Shown piece after piece: positions 1-60,064 of a stretch of DNA of 64,000 bases. Origin of the DNA: Stylophora pistillata (lineage: Eukaryota). The DNA is taken from positions 169,379 through 233,378 of the forward strand of contig NW_019218191.1 of NCBI RefSeq assembly GCF_002571385.2, written 5' to 3'. Position 1 is the stretch's first letter. The number at the start of each line of letters is the position of its first letter. Both the position numbers and the translations under genes were made by a program. The notes beneath the pieces were generated by a model. The model made no database searches and had not been told where the DNA came from. It worked only from the letters and a program-made list of their open reading frames with translations.

Positions 1-174
1 TCCTCCATTTAAGAAGATCATTCTCTGTAATGCTAAATGAACAGTAAGAGCTGCGTCGTCAACACTGCGCCCCAGTGCTCTACCGAGGACATCAAGGTCT
101 CTCTGTAAGTGCTGCCATAAGAATTGCCCCTCACACTGAGACGGGCATGGAGGTGTGATCAGCTGTGCGATTTC
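1..174 (-). CDS. RNF213: RNF213-like exon (runs off window)
   Basis: AG acceptor at 175-176; EIAQLITPP...FLWQHLQRDLDVLGRALGRSVDD. Confidence 0.85.
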
Positions 175-3100
175 CTTTGAAGAGAATTTAGAGATCTGTT
201 AATATAGTCAAGAGTGAGAGTAAAAATTTTGAAAAAGATTTTTGAGCTTTCCAAGATTACCAACATAGTATCATTGATGTCTAATCCATCAGAATCAGCG
301 ACTTAACGAGTGACACAAAGGCGGATTTTAACAGCATGAAACTTTCATAAATAAGACTGCCCATAATCGTGAAAAAAAATTCTGACAAATTTAATGATAC
401 GTGAAGCGTAGCATTCTGTCTTTTTATCTAAACACCTACAGCCTGAATAAAAATTAATTACTCTTGAAGCTTCAGTCAATGACAAAGTTCCTCTTTTGCT
501 TACTCGCTGACCGCGAGCAAATAATCACCTGGGGATATTTGGAGGCTCCCATGACCATAGCCGATTGCATTAAAGTCCTCAAGAGACTGCACACTACCGG
601 TGGCATGTCTCTCTGCGGCTCAGCGTGAGTAGGTCTAGAACCGGGTACTCCGAGGGCGTGACCAGTCTTCGTCCTGTCTTTCCTGGAAGTTCATTATTTT
701 GAGATAGATATCAGTAAAATGAGCAATGACGCTTCCTTTTTTACCTGCTGTAAACGTTTTAGGGTGATTCTGGACTCAAACTAAACCAGAATGTAGTGCA
801 GTAACATAGAGTACTTAAGGGATGACAAAGACAATATTTTCAAGTTACCTGTTAGAAACTTTAGATACTTCTGAAAACGTGAGCTGCTCCCCTCCTAAGA
901 CCCTTCCACATCCAGGACAAGTGCTCTTCTCCATTGGTTTCGAGCACTATTCCAGAACATACAAAATACACGTAAGCAAATACAGCAACAAGGGTTGACT
1001 GTGCGTTACATATATTAGAATGATTCATGACAACGACAGTAAAGAAAAATTCGATGTTTCGATAAAATCAGTTTAAAACCGTCCTAAACCAAAAGAGCTT
1101 CCCCTCTCATAAACAAACACACCCTTCCATCCCTCCTTGGTTTTTGTCGTCATGACACAGTGACTTAGTACACGGTTCATGAGCCGGCACACCGTGTAAA
1201 AACTTACCTCCCCAATAAAATACGGATGTCTGCAGTTGAGATTGCTGCACTCTGACAAGGAAAGAAAAAAATTACGTAGTGTAGGATTCATGTACGTCAG
1301 GCAACGGAATGGGAGACTTACTTGTTTTCTTCTTGCTCTATGCAGTCGTTTTTTATAATAATTGTATAGATACTTTGAAACAAAGTAACATCTTACAAAA
1401 ACATTTCAGAAAAAAAAAAACAACAACAACAACACTTACCATACCACTCTCCGACCCAACCTGTTCCCTTCATAGTTTCAGCTATGACATTAATGCACTC
1501 GAGATAGTTATCCTCAGGCATTGTTGGTAGAAACGAATTCTGTACAGAACCAATAATTATATGGGAGGTATGTTTTAATGCAGACACTCACATCAAAGTG
1601 GCTGTGAACCACTGAACTTGCAAAATAAATCATAAAGGGACGAGCAAATCGAACTTTGTATTTTAAAACCTTTTTTTAATGAAAGTTATCTTTTATCCCT
1701 GTGGTCTACTCCCAGAAAGCACGTTTCCAGTTTCACATTCTATCTGCATACTTAGCGCATTGGATTGCGCTTATCCTTTAAAAAGAACTGTCGAGGGACT
1801 GGCCTTAAGTGGCAGCATGTTTCGAGATACATTGTCTTTCTTTTTCTTTTCTAATTACTATCTTCTTCATAACATATGTTTTTCTCTTTGCGCTCCGAAC
1901 GTCACCAGTTTTTGGACAGTAATCACCATTCGAGAAACAAATTATCAAAGAGCAGCGTTTGTCTTTTCTTCACCTACTTTTGAGAACTTTCTGGGTTTTA
2001 GTCATTCTAGGGTTAAAATTTTGACCAATTTTCAGCTATCAGTTGAGCCCCACACGAGATCTTAACTCACGAAAGCCTAATACGCTAGTCGGCGGGGCCT
2101 ACCAAAAGGTTAACAGAAATGGAAGAAACGAGTGATTGAGTGATGGTTGGAAGGACGAATTTGGGCCATTACAACAACTTAACAAGTTGGAAATTCCTTT
2201 CAGCCATTCTCCGAGTTAAGAAGGAACACAACATCGAGAACACATCCTCCTTTCCAATTCTAATCTTAAATATTGAACATGGAAGCTAAAATAAGTCAAC
2301 CAGAAATTGACCAAAGGTTAGGAGGTTAAATTTTCTGGAGAACAAAAATTCTCTTTATTATCGTGTATTATGGTTATTTCGCCGTTTATGAACATGTACA
2401 TACGTTCATGGTCGATGGATCCGACATAAGGGCGAAGAGAGGTTGAGCCAAGGATCCTGAACCAACGCACTGTAAGGCTACCGCTGTGTGGATCACAATT
2501 TCAGCCAAGGTCTGCTCCTGTGGGCTTTTACCATTGTAGATTTGAAGTTCCCAGAGATGTCCTCCTTGACGGTTCGCAAGAAGTTCTTTGGCGAAAGGTT
2601 GGGCCTGCATTCGAGTCAGCGAAATTCAATTTTAAAAAATTTAATAGCCATGTTCTCACAACATACATGCATTTTTCTTTTTTTAATTTGTCTCACCGTT
2701 TCAGAAAAGTGTCCTCCATTTGTTATAAAATCATCAAGCTTTTTCCTCACCTGAAAGGTAAAAATAAACCAACAAATACTGGTCTTCTCTGAATGCAGCA
2801 CAGGGCTTGAAATTACAGCCGATTAACTAAGAATGTCCGGTCAAAATTAGGCAGCATTGAGATTGATCCTCACGTACAGGTCAAGAAATGCTTTAAAAAT
2901 CTTCTTGTTTTATATTTAAACATATTTGAACAGCGTGTCGTGGGGAGGGGGGGGGCACTATCACAGCGAAAAGACGTAATCGATGTTTGTATGGCCAAAA
3001 GTGAGTTCTGTTCGGGGAAAATTAGGTTTGACCGGACAATTTGTTATGAACTACTTAAATTAGAAGTGTTTTGGAACTGCGAAAATAAGGAATGTTCTGG

Positions 3101-6100
3101 AATTGTTTGGGCCTGTTAGATTATCTTCAAATCCTTATGCGAGTCTTGTGAGCCTTGGTTGATTATTTGCTTGCCAGAAAACACATTTATTGTTAACTTT
3201 TAAATAATATGTCCTTGACCGTTGTGAGAGAGCTTCATTCTCGTACGATAATCGTCATCGCTAATCTTGTTTAGGTGCGTCCTTGACCTGGCTTAGAAGC
3301 CCCAACGGGAGATTTTGTTTAGGTTTTTGTTCTCGGAGATTGGTTCACTTCGAATGTCTTATGAGATTGTTTTGGTTAGCATTCTAAAACTATGCTGACT
3401 GTACCAAGGTCAGCGGTCCCGTAAACCAAAACAAGATTACCGATCGGGACTATGTACTTTGAGCTGACTCAGTAGAATGGAAAGAGAGTCTCAGGGAGTA
3501 AAATAGGGTTCCTAAACAGAATCCTGGTGCCTCTCATTTGCGCGTGGTGCTCAAGTTAGTTTACCCTAACAGTCCAAACAATTAAACCGGCACCAAGTGA
3601 GACATTATTTGAAGCCCTAAAGCAAATAAAAAAGTATCGAACTAGTGCGCGTTAAAGGCGGACATGTATTCCAAGAAAAGTTACTGCAAAAAGAAGGAGG
3701 CCCACGCGTCACGTGTGCTTACCTCCTGGGACAAATTCTGTGTCTGAACTGGTGAAACATTTTCCATTGTTAGTTCACGGTACATCGCGAGGAGAAGAGG
3801 TACATTGTTGTAGACAACTTGTGATCCAGCTTCCTGCAGAAACATTGTTACACGCTGTAACTGTCTGACTAGTACCTTTTCCAACGCTTCAATTGTGAGA
3901 TGTCCGATGGTTGACGGGGCCGTCATTGATTAAAATGTATTCAAACTTCGCTAAACGAAATATCTTTAGTCTGTTAAACTACTTGTGGTTCAGTTACTGA
4001 GTCGTTGTAAAGGCAAACCAAACTAATTATCCAAGCTCAATCAAGTCGATAACATTGAGTTTCGTTTATCAGAAATCCTTCTCTGATGGAATTAATTTAA
4101 AGGGGTACTAAGGAATTATACCATATTTGTGATAATACTGAATAACGCACGCCGTAGACATTGCAGCTTAACCTATTCACTGATTAAGAAGATGAACGTG
4201 GGTGAACACGAACCGTAATGACAGAGACAATGTCTTGGATGTTCCCACTGATGACAGTTTTGGCCAATCCCTCACGGACAGCACGGTAATGGTCTCCATG
4301 AACAAGAAACCTGTCTAGGATCACATCCTCCTACAGATCGAAGATCAAAAATTATTACTAAGCAACATGTTTGATCTAAGGTCAAATGTAAAGAGTTAGC
4401 CGGCCTACACGTTAAAGAGAGACATTCTATAGTGGGTCAGACGAAAGACAGAGGAAGCGACAAATCGGAACTTTCAAAATATTTTTTTGGCTCCTTGAGA
4501 TCTCGACCTTTGCGCTTTAGAAACATTTGCGGTGATTGTTAAGTGATATTCACGAGGTTTGAGTAGGTTTTGCTCCTAAGTGAGTAAATGGAAAGTCAGT
4601 TCACTTAGTGAATGGTTTGGCTTGCGAAAAGATTGCCCGTAGCACAGTAAGTAAACCACCTGACTACCAAGTAAGATCTTGCCACGGTTTGAATTATCCT
4701 AGGATTCAGGTCTTCTTTTCCTGTCACACACTTAAGACGTATGCATAGCACTTTCTCTTAAGATTCAGTTCTCACACATTTCCTGAAATCCATTCAATAA
4801 TCATCAGTCGAGTAAAGCAATGATCCCCGCAGGTGAGCTACTAGATAAGCAATTACAGAAAAAAAGGTTGAAAAAGTGCGGCTTCGTATTAGTAAGTTGA
4901 TAGTAGCGCCCAAATGGTAGCTGTGAGACACGGGTTTGAATCCGGTCGAACCCTGAATTTTTTCAAGCTTCTTTTCTGCAATTGCTTAAATTGCAGATCA
5001 CGTGTAAGGATTGTTGCTTTACTTCAATTTCATCCGCAGGTCAAATGAAATTAATTTCATTGCAATTTTAATCATTTGTCGTCTACCTGCTGTCGAGTCT
5101 CTGAGGGTAGAATCCATTCTAGTTCCTTAAATTGACCCAAAGTCCGAACACAGTCCAAGCCATACCGCCTGACAAGCTGTTTAAGTAGGTAGAGCTGCGG
5201 TGTGGAACTCGACATTTCCAAGCAAAGCTTCCTTGCAGACACTAATAACTTTGTTACTTCTCTTTTAACTTTTTCGTCTCTGTAGCTACTGTCTCCCTCA
5301 ATAAATAACTTGTAAAGGAGCTCTACAACCAATGATAAGACGAAACGTCCCTTAGCAACTCCCTCCAGAGAACGAGCGCTCATCTCAGCAGAATCCTCGT
5401 CAATGTGCGTAAGAGCTGTGACTGTCCCTTCGCAATTCTCTGTGGCATGTTTGAGTTTTAATGTCAACCTCCTGTCTGCAAACTTGGCTTGATACTGGCT
5501 CACAAATAAGTCCTGAATAGAAAAAACCATGTAAATGTGAAGAAAACTCAGATTTTATGGCGGAATGCATTCAATATAGAGAAAAGTGACATACGTAACA
5601 TTCGCGAATGTAAGGTAAATTTGATTTCAGTTGATTTACTTTTTATCATGTTACTAACCAGCCGGGAGGTCATTATTAGGAAAAACTTTGCCCGAGGTCT
5701 TCGTCGAACATTTTTATTTGCGTAATGAAGGTGATTTACAAGGCTTCCCAGCAAACTTTGCAATTTTTTTTTATAACTACCTACCACGATCAATGAGAGA
5801 GTACGTAAGAAAAAGGAGCATGTACACATTTGAATGACCAACAGCACTGGTTTTGCGAACAAACTCGAGTTAAATGGATCACGACGATTGTTCTCTTCAA
5901 AAGCAGTCAATGATCTTGCGGAATGTTTTATTCACTTACATCCACGATTTATCTACGAAGATTTTTCTCTGTTCAGTTTTAAATGGCAAGGAAATTCACC
6001 GTAAGTATATTGAAATGTATGTTTTGAAGTTCTTTAAGTCTGTCCGTTCATTTAGTACAATGAAGTGAAAAAAATCTTCTATTTCTTCTCGCGAAAAACC

Positions 6101-9100
6101 GAAGTCAAGTGAGACCCTTTCTCTATACGGAAAGGGATTTAATCCGGCTCTTAGCAATTGATTCACTTCGGTTACTGTTGTTACACTGTGGAAGATATCA
6201 GTTCACGTACCTCCCTGCACTGAACATACAAAAGGGAGACTTCCTTGATATGCGAAGGTTCTCGTTTTAAGTTCTTAGCCCCTTTCAAGAAGTCTCCTAA
6301 ATGATTTTTCACCAGCTCTGTTCTATTTAAGAAAAAATAAGAGACAATCAAGTTTATACTTCCTCCTTTATGAAGTGATAAGAGGTATCACAAGTACAAT
6401 CAATTTGGCTTTGTAAAGAGTACAACAAAGGTCTAGGCTTTGTAAAGAGGACAACGAAGGTCTAGGTTCTGTAATCAACTGAGAAATATATTAAAAGAAG
6501 ATAGGATTTATCCCTAATGTTAGTTACCTTGAACGTAATAACAACTGGAGAAGAAATGAACACACCACAGGAGTGGGGTCAATAGCATGATCAGGGAATG
6601 GAGAGAAATCCTTTGTCTGAGATGATTGATGACCGACGACATAATGCATAAGTAGAGTGATAGCTTCCTGTTCAAGGTCCTTTGACACCGAGTCACCAAA
6701 ACAGAATATTGACACCAGCTCCATGAAAAAGGCATTACATCGGCGGCGTAACTCGGTTGCCGCCTTTTCATTGGTCCTGTAGTCACAAAGAAACCATGAA
6801 GCAATGTAAAAAAATAACAGAATTGATGTGCAGTCCTTTGGGTCCATAACGACGTATTTAAATTTTACTCTTCCTCTGAGACCGAAGAAGACTGAGATTC
6901 TATGCGATACGTACCAACTGAACCGTGTACTACAGAATAAAAAATAATGAACAATAGTTATGTCTGCCCCTCTAGGCGTATTTACGACCCTAAACCTGTC
7001 ATGGTTGCGCTATTTTACCTCTGCCTAACGTCTTCACTGTAGTTAACTAAGAATTTTTCCAAGGCCTGCAGTGATCTCAGCGAAGAAAAGTCTGTTTCAT
7101 CCCCCAAAGCCTTTAACGGAAAGAAGACATGTTGTTGAGTTTCAATTTACGACTTAGCATTTCCATTTTTTACTTTCAAATTAAGAGTAAATTCGTGCAA
7201 AAATCAAACATTGAATGGCAAAGTTAAAAAACTAAAATTCGCTGTTCTCTTGCATACAAGTAGCCTTTAGAAAGTATACAATTGCTGTGCACATTTTTTC
7301 CTTAAAAAAATTATTTGCTTCCGAAAAAACCAAAACGTTTTGTATTCAGTCCTGGGATCGATTTGGCGACACCGAACAGGATTAAAATAGGTCATGATTC
7401 ACTCGACTCGCGTATCAGAAAAACTGCGCTAGAAAAAGCTATCACAGTTCCAAGTTGTTGTACAACTTGTCATAGTCTAAACACCGTGATTTCATAAAGA
7501 TTAGATTAAATCCAGTATTCAAGAGAAGTCAAAAGTTTATGGCTCTCCCGTGTTGGGTAAAACGGTAGGCGAAAAACAACGATAATTTTTAGCATGTGCC
7601 TTTCCTCAGAATTTCGTAAGATTACGAATGATAATGCTAGAATTGATGATCTTTCAGAATACGTAAAGTTTAGTTTGGGGAAATGAATTTGGAATTTTTT
7701 ACAATTTTTGGAAAATCGTGAAGAAAGACAAAAAACTCAAGCCATTCTGATATGTACATGTGACCATCAAGATATTGATATAACAAAAATTAACACGACT
7801 CCGATGCATATAGCAAAGTAAATACAATAACCTTAACTCAAATATTATATTCTTAGCTGTTCAGATGAGTCCAGAGATTCAGTCCGTTTTGTTGTTTTCT
7901 CCATTCTGCGGTCTCCGTAAGTTTGACATCTACACCGTCGCGTTACGTCGCGGCTCATTATCTCGGGTATTGTCATTCTTAATCTTACGAAATTCTAAAC
8001 AAAGGCACAGGCTCAAAATAGTCGTTATTTTTCGTCTACCGTTTTACAGAGCACGGGGAGAGCCATAACTTCTTTGCTTCCCTTGAATACTCAGACAAAT
8101 CTAATGTTTATGAAATCATGGTGTTTAGACCATGGTAAGTTATTCAACAAATTGAAACTATGACGGCTTTTTCTAGCGAAGCAGTTTTGACAAGCGAGTC
8201 AAGAGAATCATGACTCATTTCCACCCTGTTTACTCGTGTTTGGGATCGCCAAATTGTGCTTAAGTTGAAAACGGCTTCCATCGTTTTTCTCGTGAATTAA
8301 GAGACATTTCAAGGAAAAAAACTGTATAGCATTCATCTACTTACCAAAGGCTATCTATATGCAAAAGACGAGTGAATTTGATTTTTTCAGCTTTGCCGAA
8401 GATTTGCGATTTTGTTTCATTCTTGCACGGATCTGCTCTTAAAAGAAAAACTGTTTACTGGTATAGTTACCTAACTAACTATACGCACCTTCCACAAAAT
8501 AGTTACATTCTCGGAGTTGGCTTTTTCATCTTCCTCAGCGAACAAAGTCACGTGCTCTATAAAGAGTCTGACGGCTCCGATTCGCTGCCACATGGACCTG
8601 ATCCACACGAGAACAACATGATCGCTTTTAGCATCTAGTTAATACTTTAAAAGAAAACCAATATCGGAATTTCTCTTTAACGTATGGATCCCCTTATAAC
8701 AAGGTACTAAAAATATTGTATTAATAAGATAGAGGAAAGCTTTTTTTTTTCGGGAACCAAACAAAAAATTTTCAAGGCCCTGAGAACTTATTCTCATGAG
8801 ACATCTCCCATATCTGGAATCATTTCCCGCTACATCCGCAGCCTCGGCACCAATAACGCATTCCCAAGATAATTTTAAACGATCTCAATATAAAAGAGAC
8901 CTTGAAAATCTTGAGGTCAATTATTTACGATTTAAATGACCTTTAAGGGTTGTGCATGCATTGACTGACAATACATGCACGGTTGACCGACTGACTCATT
9001 TTTCAGACAAATCCTCAGGTATAGGACACTGTGAGCGAGTGAGCGATTATACAAAACCCTATTAATGGCTTGACGGATTATCAACAGCAAACTACGTCAG

Positions 9101-12100
9101 CACCTTTAGTCGACTTCTGCTCTTGCCTCGGTCAAACCCAAGCTTTAGCGGACAAATTGGATGTTACGTTACCTGCAGCGATCAAGCAGTACTGTCGATC
9201 TCTCTCCATAGTTTGAACATTTCTCCGTGACAGGTCCGAACCTCTCTTTCCTTATCATGTCTTCCACCGCTGGTCTCATAGACAAAACTCTGTCACACCA
9301 AATTTGTCTTGTGTCCGGAAAAAGCAACATTTCTCGTGATGGCTCGATCGCTTCAAGACAAATTTGCAATGCTACCACATCCAAAAGCTGTAAAATGATA
9401 GTAGTAATAATAATAATAGCAATAATAATAATAATAATAATAATGATAATAATAATAACAATAGTAGTAACAATGATAATAATGATAATGACAACAACAA
9501 TACAGTACAGTCAATCAATCTTTAATTTACAGACGAGGCACACTAACAAGTGCAACTCAGATTAAGTTTAACTTATTATGTAGCAAAGGAAGGGACAAAA
9601 TCAGAAAGACCCAAGGTGTAGCAAGGGGCGAGAAGGGCTCGTGGTGGGCATGACATCATTGCAGCGGTAACAATCATCTGAAGTAAGAAAACAACCTAGC
9701 ATGCCAAGGACCTCTAATACACTAGTTTTCAAACCACTCCCATACCCGAAAAACCCTACCAATTACCCGATTGCTATCGTAGAAAATACTTTGACGAAAG
9801 GTATGACAAAGACTCAAAAGATATTAAGTTCACCGTTTCTCGGGCATACTTGAAATTTTCAAGGAAAAATGTTAATGGTTAAATTTTAATTATGTACTAT
9901 TATCAACCGTTTTGTTCATGCACTGAATTACAAAACTCGAGTAACTCACCACTTCTGGCTCACTTCCTTGAAGTACTTCACGTAGTCGCGGGATAAGACT
10001 TGGATTCATTTTGACAATTGTATCAAAATACTTTAAACGGTGTTGAACTCTACTGTGTGCGACATGAACGAGAGCTATGTCAATCGACTCGTTATCATCT
10101 TCATCATCCAGGATACCAAGTTCTCTCGCAGACGAAAGAATCGCTTCGTACACAAGCTGAAAAACAACATGAACAAAAAAAAGAAAATGTAGCCTTAACC
10201 GCGTTTCAGTTGCACTGAGGTAAGTCTCAGTTACCCCGGAATAAAATAACTGTTTTCTCCAACTAGTTTATCTATGGATCGATTTCCGTCTTGTATAAAA
10301 CATATTTGATATATCTGCATCTTTAATGACCACATCAAGTTTTCCAGACAACAACTTATACAGGGTATTCAACACCTTCAACCTTTTTCAGGTTGGGGTC
10401 AGAGTCCATTTAATTTAAAAAGTAAACTTTCAACGCGAAACAGTCCTTAAAATAAATCTCAAACACAAATAGATTCGTAGATTTATTCGAACTGTTTTTG
10501 TCCTAGTCGCACCCATCGCTCAAGTTAATCACGCAATATGTTTCCAGCCGGGGGAGGAGCGAGTCAAATGACTATCCTAGAGTACATTCTAAGGGGTAGT
10601 TTTAGAGTTCAATTAGTGGGAGTGTGGCTATTAATGTTATGAAAAGTATCGTGAAACCTCGTATTCATTATCGTTTGAAGGTTTGTGCACCATGTGTACG
10701 AAATCCATCAGGTATTGCGAAGCAACGGAGTCTTCATGGCGTAATTCCTTGAAGAGAAGTCCCAGTTGCGAATTGTCGATCATATCACGTAATGCGACCA
10801 ACAGGGTGGTACTAGAACCGGGTAAAGCTGAGGACAAAGCAGTAATTTAAAAAACTAATGGTTAGCCACGGAACTAGATTTCATCGCTTTAGCACTTCAG
10901 AGTTACTTCTTAGTTTTTAACACAATACTGATCTTTCTTCGTAAGCGATAGAAAACGCTAGGAAAAGGCGATTAGCCTTAAGTTAGTATTACTCTTGACA
11001 CTTTTTTATTAAGACTTAGAATGAACAAAATGTCAGAAACATAGTAGACAAGTTACAATTTTAAAAAAGGACACGCCGAGCAAATTTGAAAAAAAGCCAA
11101 GAATAGGGCAAAATGAAAGAAAATCGAAGACAAGTTCATTACCTGAGGTGCTAGATGCCTCTTTAACCATGTTCTCCACGCGTTCCTTTATAAGGAACGA
11201 AAATGGAAACCGGCTACAGAACTTGTGACCCTCAGCTCCAGAGCCAATGACTTGAACACGTTCCCGCACAGAATTAGTAGCAGGTGATATCATTTCGCTG
11301 TAACTCAGTTCTGAAAAGGTAGGGTCAGCTAAAATCTTCAACCACAGCTTTGAAACCCAACTATTGTCACTCTTTACCAAGTCCAAGTTCATGTCCCTGT
11401 CTGCAAATGCGATGATCTCAGCCAAAATGGGCACCACCACTGAATACATTCTTTGCAAAAGGGCCTTTCTAAAGGTGCCCCACTCTTGCACCCCTGTTCC
11501 AGAGAGAGCTTCTGAGTGAAGCCATATCTGTGCATCGTATGCAGTAGCCTCTTTTTCCATTAAGAGGTAGTATGTCCTTTGTACTAATACGCTTGCAAAT
11601 GACTCCTCATCTTTACGAATAAACGGCAAAGATTAAACAGAGAAAAAAGTTACCGAAAAGATTTTACTTCGAAACTACGTGATGCTCTATTCCGCATCAT
11701 CTCTTAATTTATTCTAAATGAAGCTATTATCCTTTCTCCATTACCTTGAAACATAAGTGCGGTTAAAAAAAGAAAACCGCCGAATTCATATCGCATTCGG
11801 ACAAAAAAAATTATTTGCTGCTCCTTCAAAAGAATAATGCACTTACCCAAACTCAGATAAACTCAAAGACGACAGCTCCGATTCGATATACACACATGAA
11901 TCCGAATTTGTTGGGAAACTGTATAAATATTCACATATATATCCCTCTAACAAATCTGAATAAGTAACACTTGAAAAATACGTATAGAAATTAGAGGCTC
12001 TATTAAATCTTTTGAAAAACCATACTTAATAAAGATTTCATTTTCTTGAAATGCTATCAGTATATCATTGGCAAGTTCGGTAGAAATATATTGTGCTCAC

Positions 12101-60064: not shown

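What the first reader, a model, noticed from the sequence alone, without database searches (positions are those of the whole stretch)
1..60064. Non-canonical RNF213-type ubiquitin machine: intact AAA+ motor, no RING, altered RZ finger, UBA-like insert
Seen: ~3,950 uninterrupted codons over 61 exons with intact AAA2/3/4 nucleotide-binding motifs but a remodelled E3 end. Known: vertebrate RNF213 ubiquitylates LPS and pathogen vacuoles via the RZ finger, independently of its RING. Inference: this is an invertebrate (probably coral) paralogue with a distinct architecture, possibly an ATP-driven sensor or ubiquitin-binding scaffold with changed or lost ligase chemistry.
Basis: partly seen in the sequence, partly recalled or inferred. 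Interest (0 to 1): 0.75.

Follow-up and report, generated by a model that had tools for sequence, protein, structure and literature searches.

The report
RING-less coral RNF213 with ancestral UBA
This is an intact, expressed coral copy of the giant immune enzyme RNF213 that lacks the RING finger, which is dispensable in mammals; it keeps its ATP motor and catalytic cysteine, so it likely still attaches ubiquitin, and it carries a UBA-fold (ubiquitin-binding type) domain that is common in invertebrate copies and that the main vertebrate copy likely lost.

Summary
The anatomy is confirmed: 61 exons on the minus strand, 60 GT-AG introns, 3,948 codons, no stop. The AAA3 and AAA4 motifs match mammals, and spliced RNA from three studies joins exon 49 directly to exon 50, where the RING would lie.

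The reading of a unique protein with lost chemistry is weaker. The gene belongs to a RING-less clade spanning both main stony-coral lineages. In RING-bearing coral paralogues the RING sits on one symmetric 186-nt exon, which is missing here.

The RZ finger keeps the catalytic cysteine and all four zinc-ligand positions, plus a clade-wide extra cysteine. The leucine replacing the putative general-base histidine is real but not fixed: histidine appears in all four runs laid.

The UBA fold is real but no coral novelty. It occurs in 47 of 107 relatives and is missing from canonical vertebrate RNF213.

Best reading: an ATP-gated, RZ-dependent ubiquitin ligase (0.7). The scan noted RING-less RNF213 relatives before in fungi and protists (unchecked here), not this clade. 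Eight paper searches found no description of the UBA, the RING exon or the four-cysteine RZ. This is a new variant of a known kind.

The parts
1..60064 (-). RNF213-family gene, 61 exons, 3,948 codons in the window; both ends of the gene lie outside the modelled part
   Evidence: RNA joints for the 3' part
46995..47132 (-). UBA-fold three-helix domain (model residues about 989-1034) inside exon 10 (46873-47693), in a 186-residue linker just before AAA1
44737..44760 (-). AAA2 Walker A (lysine kept; Walker B lacks the catalytic Glu, as in mammals)
   Evidence: PMC7311170 passages
32802..32825 (-). AAA3 Walker A
31999..32019 (-). AAA3 Walker B
29215..29238 (-). AAA4 Walker A
27680..27700 (-). AAA4 Walker B
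6777..7018 (-). Intron 49 (242 nt, phase 2): the site where RING-bearing coral paralogues have a 186-nt RING exon flanked by phase-2 introns; no RING remnant here
1440..1539 (-). Exon 57: linker and amphipathic helix that precede the RZ finger
   Evidence: role of this helix in ZNFX1 and RNF213
1208..1251 (-). Exon 58: first zinc knuckle of the RZ finger, C-x4-C-x-H (Cys 1247-1249, clade-wide extra Cys 1232-1234, canonical His 1226-1228)
849..946 (-). Exon 59: catalytic Cys (944-946), second knuckle CxxC (917-919, 908-910) and putative general-base position
881..883 (-). Leu codon at the putative general-base His; reads and contigs show both Leu and His (single base, 882)

Best explanation
This is an intact, spliced and expressed member of a RING-less stony-coral clade of RNF213 that likely still works as an ATP-gated ubiquitin ligase through the catalytic cysteine of its RZ finger, probably in cell-autonomous defence. 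Shown here: the open frame, the mammal-like AAA2/3/4 motifs, the absence of the RING from DNA and RNA, the kept catalytic Cys and zinc-ligand positions, a UBA fold before AAA1, and both His and Leu at the putative base. Inferred from mammalian work: ATP binding at AAA3/4 switches on the E3 module, an E2~ubiquitin docks on the C-terminal domain (outside the window, present in clade relatives), ubiquitin passes to the RZ cysteine and then to a substrate. Inferred from comparison: the RING was lost by deletion of one symmetric exon; the first zinc knuckle now likely uses Cys-x-Cys in place of Cys/His; the Leu form is likely a weaker ligase rather than a dead one; the UBA was likely present in the animal ancestor and may help hold ubiquitin or ubiquitylated targets. 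Substrate and E2 are untested.
For: 3,948 codons without a stop, 60 of 60 introns GT-AG. Spliced RNA in three studies, strand consistent with minus-strand transcription, no exonic indel among the 12 listed, 5 more not shown. AAA3/4 motifs match mammals; ATP binding there is what activates mouse RNF213. Catalytic Cys and the second CxxC are present in 10 of 10 complete clade RZ fingers, the extra Cys in 10 of 10, the canonical zinc His in 6 of 10 and Tyr in 4 of 10. A profile built from 166 canonical RZ cores, the clade left out, scores the window's RZ at 41 bits, E 1e-13; the close relative P0005 passes Pfam PF20173 (51.9 bits, cut-off 27). Deleting the RING does not impair ubiquitylation of bacteria in cells (PMC11549300). 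Mouse His4483Ala gives lower, not absent, activity (PMC12075652), and this position is not His in 44 of 189 complete RZ fingers, Tyr in 28. His is read at 882 in 9 of 34 reads (X21), 9 of 10 (X24) and in the covering contigs of X14 and X2. RING on one 186-nt exon with phase-2 introns in L003, L004 and L005, with the same neighbouring exons as the window.
Against: No activity was measured. The E2-docking C-terminal domain is outside the window; in clade relatives the mouse residues Trp5097 and Glu5108, whose mutation kills activity, align with Met and with Pro, Ala or Glu. The same loss of Trp is seen in RING-bearing corals and in molluscs, so it is not clade-specific, but invertebrate E2 docking is unproven. 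The window's own allele lacks the putative base, and Leu is the majority in X21 (25 of 34 reads). Among the 31 exonic differences in the 40 rows listed (198 more not shown), 18 change the residue and 13 do not, which is only modest constraint and mixes alleles with paralogues. The window's UBA has no Pfam hit and has an acidic residue where UBA domains usually have the Met of the MGF loop (motif recalled). An immune role rests on homology; no infection data were examined.
Confidence: 0.7

Rival explanations
1. The clade has become a non-catalytic or nearly non-catalytic ATP-switched sensor or scaffold that binds ubiquitin through the UBA and relies on an active paralogue.
For: RING gone, base His replaced in the window and in P0008 (2 of 10), E2-docking Trp and Glu not kept in clade relatives, several paralogues per genome (at least 10 Stylophora entries).
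Against: Catalytic Cys invariant in 10 of 10 clade RZ fingers across robust and complex corals; His forms are expressed; the UBA is also present in RING-bearing relatives, so it does not mark a switch of function.
Confidence: 0.15
2. The clade is an active ligase, but this particular copy or allele is decaying (relaxed selection after duplication), the Leu being an early loss-of-function change.
For: Leu at the putative base; 18 of 31 listed exonic differences are non-synonymous; large insertions in introns 20, 35 and 48.
Against: No stop or frameshift over 3,948 codons; short terminal branch (0.036) and 92% identity to the Stylophora orthologue over the AAA core; expressed in three studies.
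Confidence: 0.1
3. The missing RING or the odd RZ is an artefact of assembly or gene modelling.
For: The window has five N runs; some public models in this family are wrong (P0096 includes intron sequence; P0009, P0010 and P0020 lack or add pieces).
Against: RNA joins exon 49 to 50 directly in 3 of 3 RNA runs and reads carry the Leu codon; no N lies in 1-20942; the same traits occur in proteins from five coral genera.
Confidence: 0.02

Closest known systems
Mammalian RNF213 / mysterin (PDB 6TAX, 7OIK, 8S24, 9G08, 9JW1)
   Same: Colinear stalk, linker, six-AAA core, hinge and E3 module (P0005 scores over 2,200 bits); AAA2 binding-only and AAA3/4 catalytic motifs; RZ catalytic Cys, zinc His and CxxC kept.
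   Different: No RING; a linker of 186 residues with a UBA fold before AAA1 instead of about 50; RZ first knuckle with an extra Cys and an insertion; base His variable; E2-docking Trp and Glu not kept in clade relatives; N-terminus (CBM20 in human) not in the window.
Stony-coral 'rnf213-alpha-like' / 'RZ-type domain-containing' database proteins (P0001-P0011, P0020, P0096)
   Same: Same clade (support 100 in three trees): RING-less, Cys-x-Cys first knuckle, UBA linker of 184-193 residues. Already in public annotation under automatic names.
   Different: The window has Leu at the base position; it shares the C-x4-C spacing only with P0005. None has been characterised in the papers I found.
RING-bearing coral paralogues (P0012, P0013, P0016; loci L003-L005)
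   Same: Same exon pattern around the RING site; UBA-like domain present in P0012 and P0013.
   Different: They keep the 186-nt RING exon and a canonical Cys/His first knuckle, and have Tyr at the base position.
Vertebrate RNF213 paralogue clade (P0091 Aquila, P0092 Pelecanus, P0093 Neoarius, P0161, P0178)
   Same: Long linker, UBA-like hit in 4 of these 5, and a Cys-x-Cys first knuckle in 4 of 5.
   Different: RING kept; separate branch, so the four-cysteine knuckle likely arose independently.
ZNFX1 RZ finger; UBA domains of USP5, UBAC1, UBASH3A and UBXN1
   Same: RZ catalytic layout; UBA three-helix fold.
   Different: ZNFX1 is an RNA helicase with a Miz domain; the coral UBA is divergent (12-28% identity to solved UBA domains) and its binding is untested.

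Membership tests
RNF213 family | Dynein-like AAA core with catalytic AAA3/AAA4 and binding-only AAA2 | tested here: met
RNF213 family | Colinear stalk, linker, hinge and E3 scaffold | tested here: met
RNF213 family | RZ finger with catalytic Cys and four zinc-ligand positions | tested here: met
   extra Cys and insertion make the actual ligand set uncertain
RNF213 family | General-base His in the RZ finger | tested here: inconclusive
   Leu in the window; both His and Leu in reads; His in 145 of 189 complete RZ fingers
RNF213 family | C-terminal E2-docking domain | not testable with these tools
   Outside the window and no genome held; present in clade relatives with changed docking residues
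RNF213 family | ATP-dependent transthiolation activity | not testable with these tools
   needs biochemistry
Canonical (vertebrate-type) RNF213 with RING | C3HC4 RING inserted in the E3 module | tested here: not met
Canonical (vertebrate-type) RNF213 with RING | N-terminal CBM20 domain | not testable with these tools
   5' end of the gene is not in the model
UBA domain | Three-helix UBA fold | tested here: met
   model pLDDT 74; best match USP5 UBA Z 5.9, rmsd 2.5 over 53 residues, most top rows UBA/CUE, though such Z values are middling; profile hits four UBA chains at E under 0.001; Foldseek gave nothing at E under 0.001
UBA domain | Pfam UBA match of the window's own sequence | tested here: not met
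   0 hits; 15 of 37 aligned members hit UBA_7 and 8 of 37 hit UBA at E up to 0.1
UBA domain | Binds ubiquitin | not tested

The most novel reading that the evidence does not exclude
The ancestral animal RNF213 carried a built-in ubiquitin reader next to its motor, so that it binds the ubiquitin it deposits and recruits or activates further copies. This would be a direct mechanism for the self-amplifying coats seen on pathogens, which canonical vertebrate RNF213 achieves without this domain. In stony corals a RING-less clade with a four-cysteine RZ finger would tune this loop through a His/Leu switch at the catalytic base that is kept in the population, giving high- and low-output or substrate-shifted ligase forms.
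Probability: 0.2. Interest if true: 0.72.

Novelty: new variant of a known kind. Interest (0 to 1): 0.45.

Why it matters
The role of the RNF213 RING, a hotspot of moyamoya mutations, and the way ubiquitin deposition amplifies RNF213 coats are both stated as open in the papers read. This gene offers natural test cases: an old RING-less clade beside RING-bearing paralogues in the same genomes, a RING on one removable exon, a UBA domain that most invertebrate copies have and canonical vertebrate RNF213 lacks, a variant zinc knuckle, and a natural His/Leu change at the proposed catalytic base. It also bears on coral innate immunity. The core machine is known, the proteins are already in databases, and nothing here shows new chemistry, which caps the interest.

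Tried and rejected
1. Extra exons suggested by P0096 at 34746-34799 and 32469-32639: rejected; they break the frame or hit stops and are absent from P0005 and P0011.
2. My first reading that bird and fish paralogues P0091-P0093 are RING-less, taken from precomputed Pfam lists: wrong; they have a RING-length, cysteine-rich spacer.
3. A RING remnant in intron 49 or elsewhere in the window: none.
4. Pfam on the UBA exon and Foldseek on its model: nothing significant; support comes from the profile and from VIA-align.
5. One single RING loss for all hexacoral RING-less copies: weakly rejected (p-AU 0.027 on 16 chosen rows, quick tree, group named after earlier trees were seen). The four hexacoral lineages are unresolved and two trees disagree, so the number of losses is open.
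6. A regular-expression count of RINGs (72 of 125) misses degenerate mollusc RINGs, so spacer length was used instead.
7. dN/dS was not computed: no orthologue coding DNA was obtained. The metagenome scan returned 9 loci, all of the RING-bearing lineage type.
8. No complex was predicted: no ubiquitin or E2 sequence was at hand, and UBA-ubiquitin is a textbook pair.
9. No RZ model was made, since the folding tool returns no zinc geometry.
11. Paper searches returned mostly unrelated work.

Full report
1. Observation. No whole genome is held for this window, so the gene was modelled from homologues. Protein searches with an exon and with a coral relative returned 3 and 95 proteins; a whole-library search returned 150 more rows. 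tblastn and a spliced aligner gave one model: 61 exons on the minus strand, 60 of 60 introns GT-AG, 3,948 codons, no stop. The exons are 60064-59746, 59183-59088, 57452-57336, 57119-56900, 56574-56254, 54739-54135, 53887-53728, 53052-52823, 51930-51595, 47693-46873, 46630-46470, 46230-46156, 45911-45805, 45490-45340, 45254-45038, 44785-44515, 43914-43741, 43366-43258, 42912-42741, 42433-42238, 35436-35321, 34418-34224, 33122-33000, 32850-32733, 32115-31880, 31545-31463, 30944-30811, 30508-30413, 30300-30154, 29842-29676, 29362-29140, 27817-27462, 27224-27066, 26963-26816, 25787-25702, 17092-16957, 16503-16396, 16017-15932, 15554-15369, 14433-14295, 14028-13813, 13535-13399, 12607-12117, 11610-11143, 10827-10658, 10156-9950, 9387-9173, 8597-8489, 7110-7019, 6776-6528, 6322-6211, 5512-5087, 4330-4214, 3833-3723, 2750-2697, 2604-2404, 1539-1440, 1251-1208, 946-849, 682-529 and 174-1. 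Both ends of the gene are missing from the model. The closest proteins are from Stylophora pistillata: P0096 at 89%, P0005 at 82% and P0011 at 74%. The organism is likely a pocilloporid coral (inference).

2. Expression. Of 24 runs listed, four were laid on 1-8700: two raw RNA runs, one RNA contig set and one contig set of unrecorded kind that shows no spliced joints. Depth follows the exons. Eleven of the 13 introns in that stretch appear as joints in all three RNA runs; intron 58 is supported by loose ends (12 reads in X21, one contig in X14); intron 57 is not listed. Some reads come from a paralogue (clustered differences at 3760-3795 and loose ends at 4213). The rest of the gene, including the UBA exon, was not tested with RNA.

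3. Motor. AAA3 and AAA4 Walker A, Walker B and sensor motifs match mammalian RNF213; AAA2 keeps its lysine and lacks the catalytic glutamate. This is the pattern described for mouse (PMC7311170, passages). ATP binding at AAA3/4 is necessary and sufficient for E3 activity in mouse (10.1101/2021.05.10.443411, section 4).

4. RING. Among 139 proteins of 2,000 residues or more, 125 had both anchors around the RING site. In 25 (the window included) the spacer is 24 residues or less, in 99 it is 52-95, and one model holds a large foreign insert. Of 21 named cnidarian proteins, 18 are RING-less; the query was RING-less, so this is biased. Short spacers also occur in Capitella, a scallop and four unnamed proteins, some of which may be modelling errors or splice forms. 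RNA joins exon 49 to exon 50 directly and no remnant is found. A metagenome scan with a RING-bearing coral stretch gave 9 loci. In L003, L004 and L005 the RING lies on one 186-nt exon between two phase-2 introns; L004 and L005 show the upstream 109-nt and 101-nt exons that match the window's exons 48 (109 nt) and 49 (92 nt). L009 has a damaged RING exon, L001 is intronless and lacks the RING, and L002, L006, L007 and L008 do not show the exon. Loss of one symmetric exon therefore explains the missing RING (inference). Three database models (P0014, P0150, P0214) lack the same module at the same joint. In mammals the RING is dispensable for auto-ubiquitylation and for ubiquitylation of bacteria, and partly needed on Toxoplasma vacuoles (PMC11549300, passages).

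5. RZ finger. Mouse uses Cys, His, Cys, Cys for zinc and a separate Cys as nucleophile. The window keeps all five positions. It adds a Cys two residues before the zinc His and a short insertion, giving C-x4-C-x-H. Of 214 proteins with a hit in this region, 189 have a complete finger: 167 canonical, 14 with the extra Cys and no His, 6 with both, 2 unclear. In the window's clade the extra Cys is in 10 of 10, while the His is replaced by Tyr in 4 of 10, so the clade likely binds zinc with four cysteines (inference; geometry not modelled). The same swap occurs in a separate vertebrate paralogue clade and in scattered unnamed proteins. The putative general base is Leu in the window. This is one base from His, and both occur: His in 9 of 34 reads (X21), 9 of 10 (X24) and in the covering contigs of X14 and X2, with His reads differing from the window at as few as 0-1 other places. 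Alleles and very recent duplicates cannot be told apart here. The position is His in 145 of 189 fingers and Tyr in 28. Mouse His4483Ala has lower activity, given as '<10x' (PMC12075652, passages). The helix before the finger, which binds ubiquitin in ZNFX1 (10.1101/2025.10.14.682297, section 11), is present as an amphipathic stretch; the key residue was not mapped. Against the ligase reading: the E2-docking Trp and Glu of mouse are not kept in clade relatives, and the Trp is also missing in RING-bearing corals and molluscs.

6. UBA. The segment lies in exon 10, between the positions matching about 1779 and 1822 of human chain 8S24, at the junction of linker and AAA1. Of 107 proteins with both anchors, 54 have a linker over 90 residues and 47 of these match an iterated profile started from the window's segment; none of the 53 short linkers does. 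Hits include RING-bearing and RING-less corals, an anemone, many molluscs, a hemichordate, an echinoderm and the bird paralogues. The sponge protein P0034, missed by the profile, has its own Pfam UBA there (E 1.5e-6). Canonical mammal, bird, reptile and fish RNF213 have linkers of about 44-88 residues and no hit. An alignment of 37 of these segments hits four solved UBA chains at E under 0.001; 15 of 37 members match Pfam UBA_7, the window's own does not. The model is a three-helix bundle plus two helices, mean pLDDT 74; its best structural match is the USP5 UBA (Z 5.9, rmsd 2.5, 53 residues), a middling score, and Foldseek finds nothing significant. The domain was likely present in the animal ancestor and lost in canonical vertebrate RNF213 (inference from the tree). 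Binding is untested.

7. Clade. FastTree on 82 of 88 chosen AAA cores and IQ-TREE quick trees on 23 and 16 rows all give a fully supported clade of the window with Stylophora, Pocillopora, Acropora and Montipora proteins. It thus spans robust and complex corals. Desmophyllum proteins share the traits but were too short for the tree. Its relation to the other hexacoral lineages is unresolved.

8. Mechanism and rivals. Best reading (0.7): an ATP-gated transthiolating ligase acting through the RZ cysteine, the natural equivalent of the mammalian RING deletion, with a likely weaker Leu form. Rivals: non-catalytic scaffold (0.15), decaying copy (0.1), artefact (0.02).

9. Literature. Read: 10.1101/2021.05.10.443411 (abstract, sections 4, 5 part 1 of 2, and 7); passages of PMC11549300, PMC12075652, PMC7311170, PMC13104285 and PMC9993606; passages and section 11 of 10.1101/2025.10.14.682297. 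Coral RNF213 appears there only as a proteomic hit, and a bivalve paper reports family expansion. Eight searches (listings only, at most 25 shown each) showed no paper on a UBA in RNF213, a RING cassette exon or a four-cysteine RZ. Otten et al. 2021 is not held, and no supplementary alignments were seen; they may show invertebrate RZ or RING variation. The scan's earlier notes report RING-less RNF213 relatives in fungi and protists, one with an altered zinc site (unchecked here), and nothing on this clade or its UBA.

10. Verdict. A real, well-supported variant of a known machine, shared by a coral clade and already present in databases under automatic names. The comparative points (ancestral UBA, removable RING exon, four-cysteine RZ, His/Leu variation) are useful and testable but do not amount to a new kind of system. 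Interest 0.45.

Noticed in passing
window 35437-42237 (intron 20), frames at 38190-38723, 39086-39609, 39527-40045, 40046-40747 on the minus strand: GC-richer, frameshifted open frames that look like a broken DIRS-type retrotransposon (reverse transcriptase and RNase H-like). The label is recalled from motifs; Pfam gave no hit at E 0.001.
   Followed up: partly
window 17922-18804 (intron 35, 8.6 kb): Degenerate tandem array, period about 42, 19 copies.
   Followed up: no
window 7182-8469 (intron 48): High-copy repeat (contig depth in the thousands) that is absent from one contig of run X2: a likely insertion polymorphism.
   Followed up: no
P0008 (Acropora muricata), residues 17-375: A member of the same RING-less clade carries an N-terminal GT4-conflict glycosyltransferase (E 1e-32) and a weak TRADD-N-like match; P0011 has a weak N-terminal zinc ribbon. 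The clade's N-termini may be swapped sensor or effector modules, or these may be gene-model fusions.
   Followed up: partly
P0091 (Aquila), P0092 (Pelecanus), P0093 (Neoarius), P0145, P0161, P0178: A separate RNF213 paralogue clade that includes bird and fish proteins keeps the long UBA-type linker and the RING, mostly with a four-cysteine RZ knuckle.
   Followed up: partly
L001:749-1483: Intronless contig of the RING-bearing lineage type that lacks the RING and repeats part of the upstream exon; possibly a transcript or an assembly error.
   Followed up: no
L009:2029-2222: RING exon of a paralogue with a stop and lost cysteines: a RING or whole gene in decay.
   Followed up: no
window 34746-34799 and 32469-32639: Intron sequence conserved with Stylophora, where the public model P0096 annotates it as exons.
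   Followed up: yes
window 49787-50212 (+), 61019-61447 (-), 36196-36825 (+): Short frames resembling ends of LINE-type elements (recalled resemblance); no Pfam hit.
   Followed up: partly
window 28628-28727: Degenerate telomere-like TAACCC array inside intron 31.
   Followed up: no
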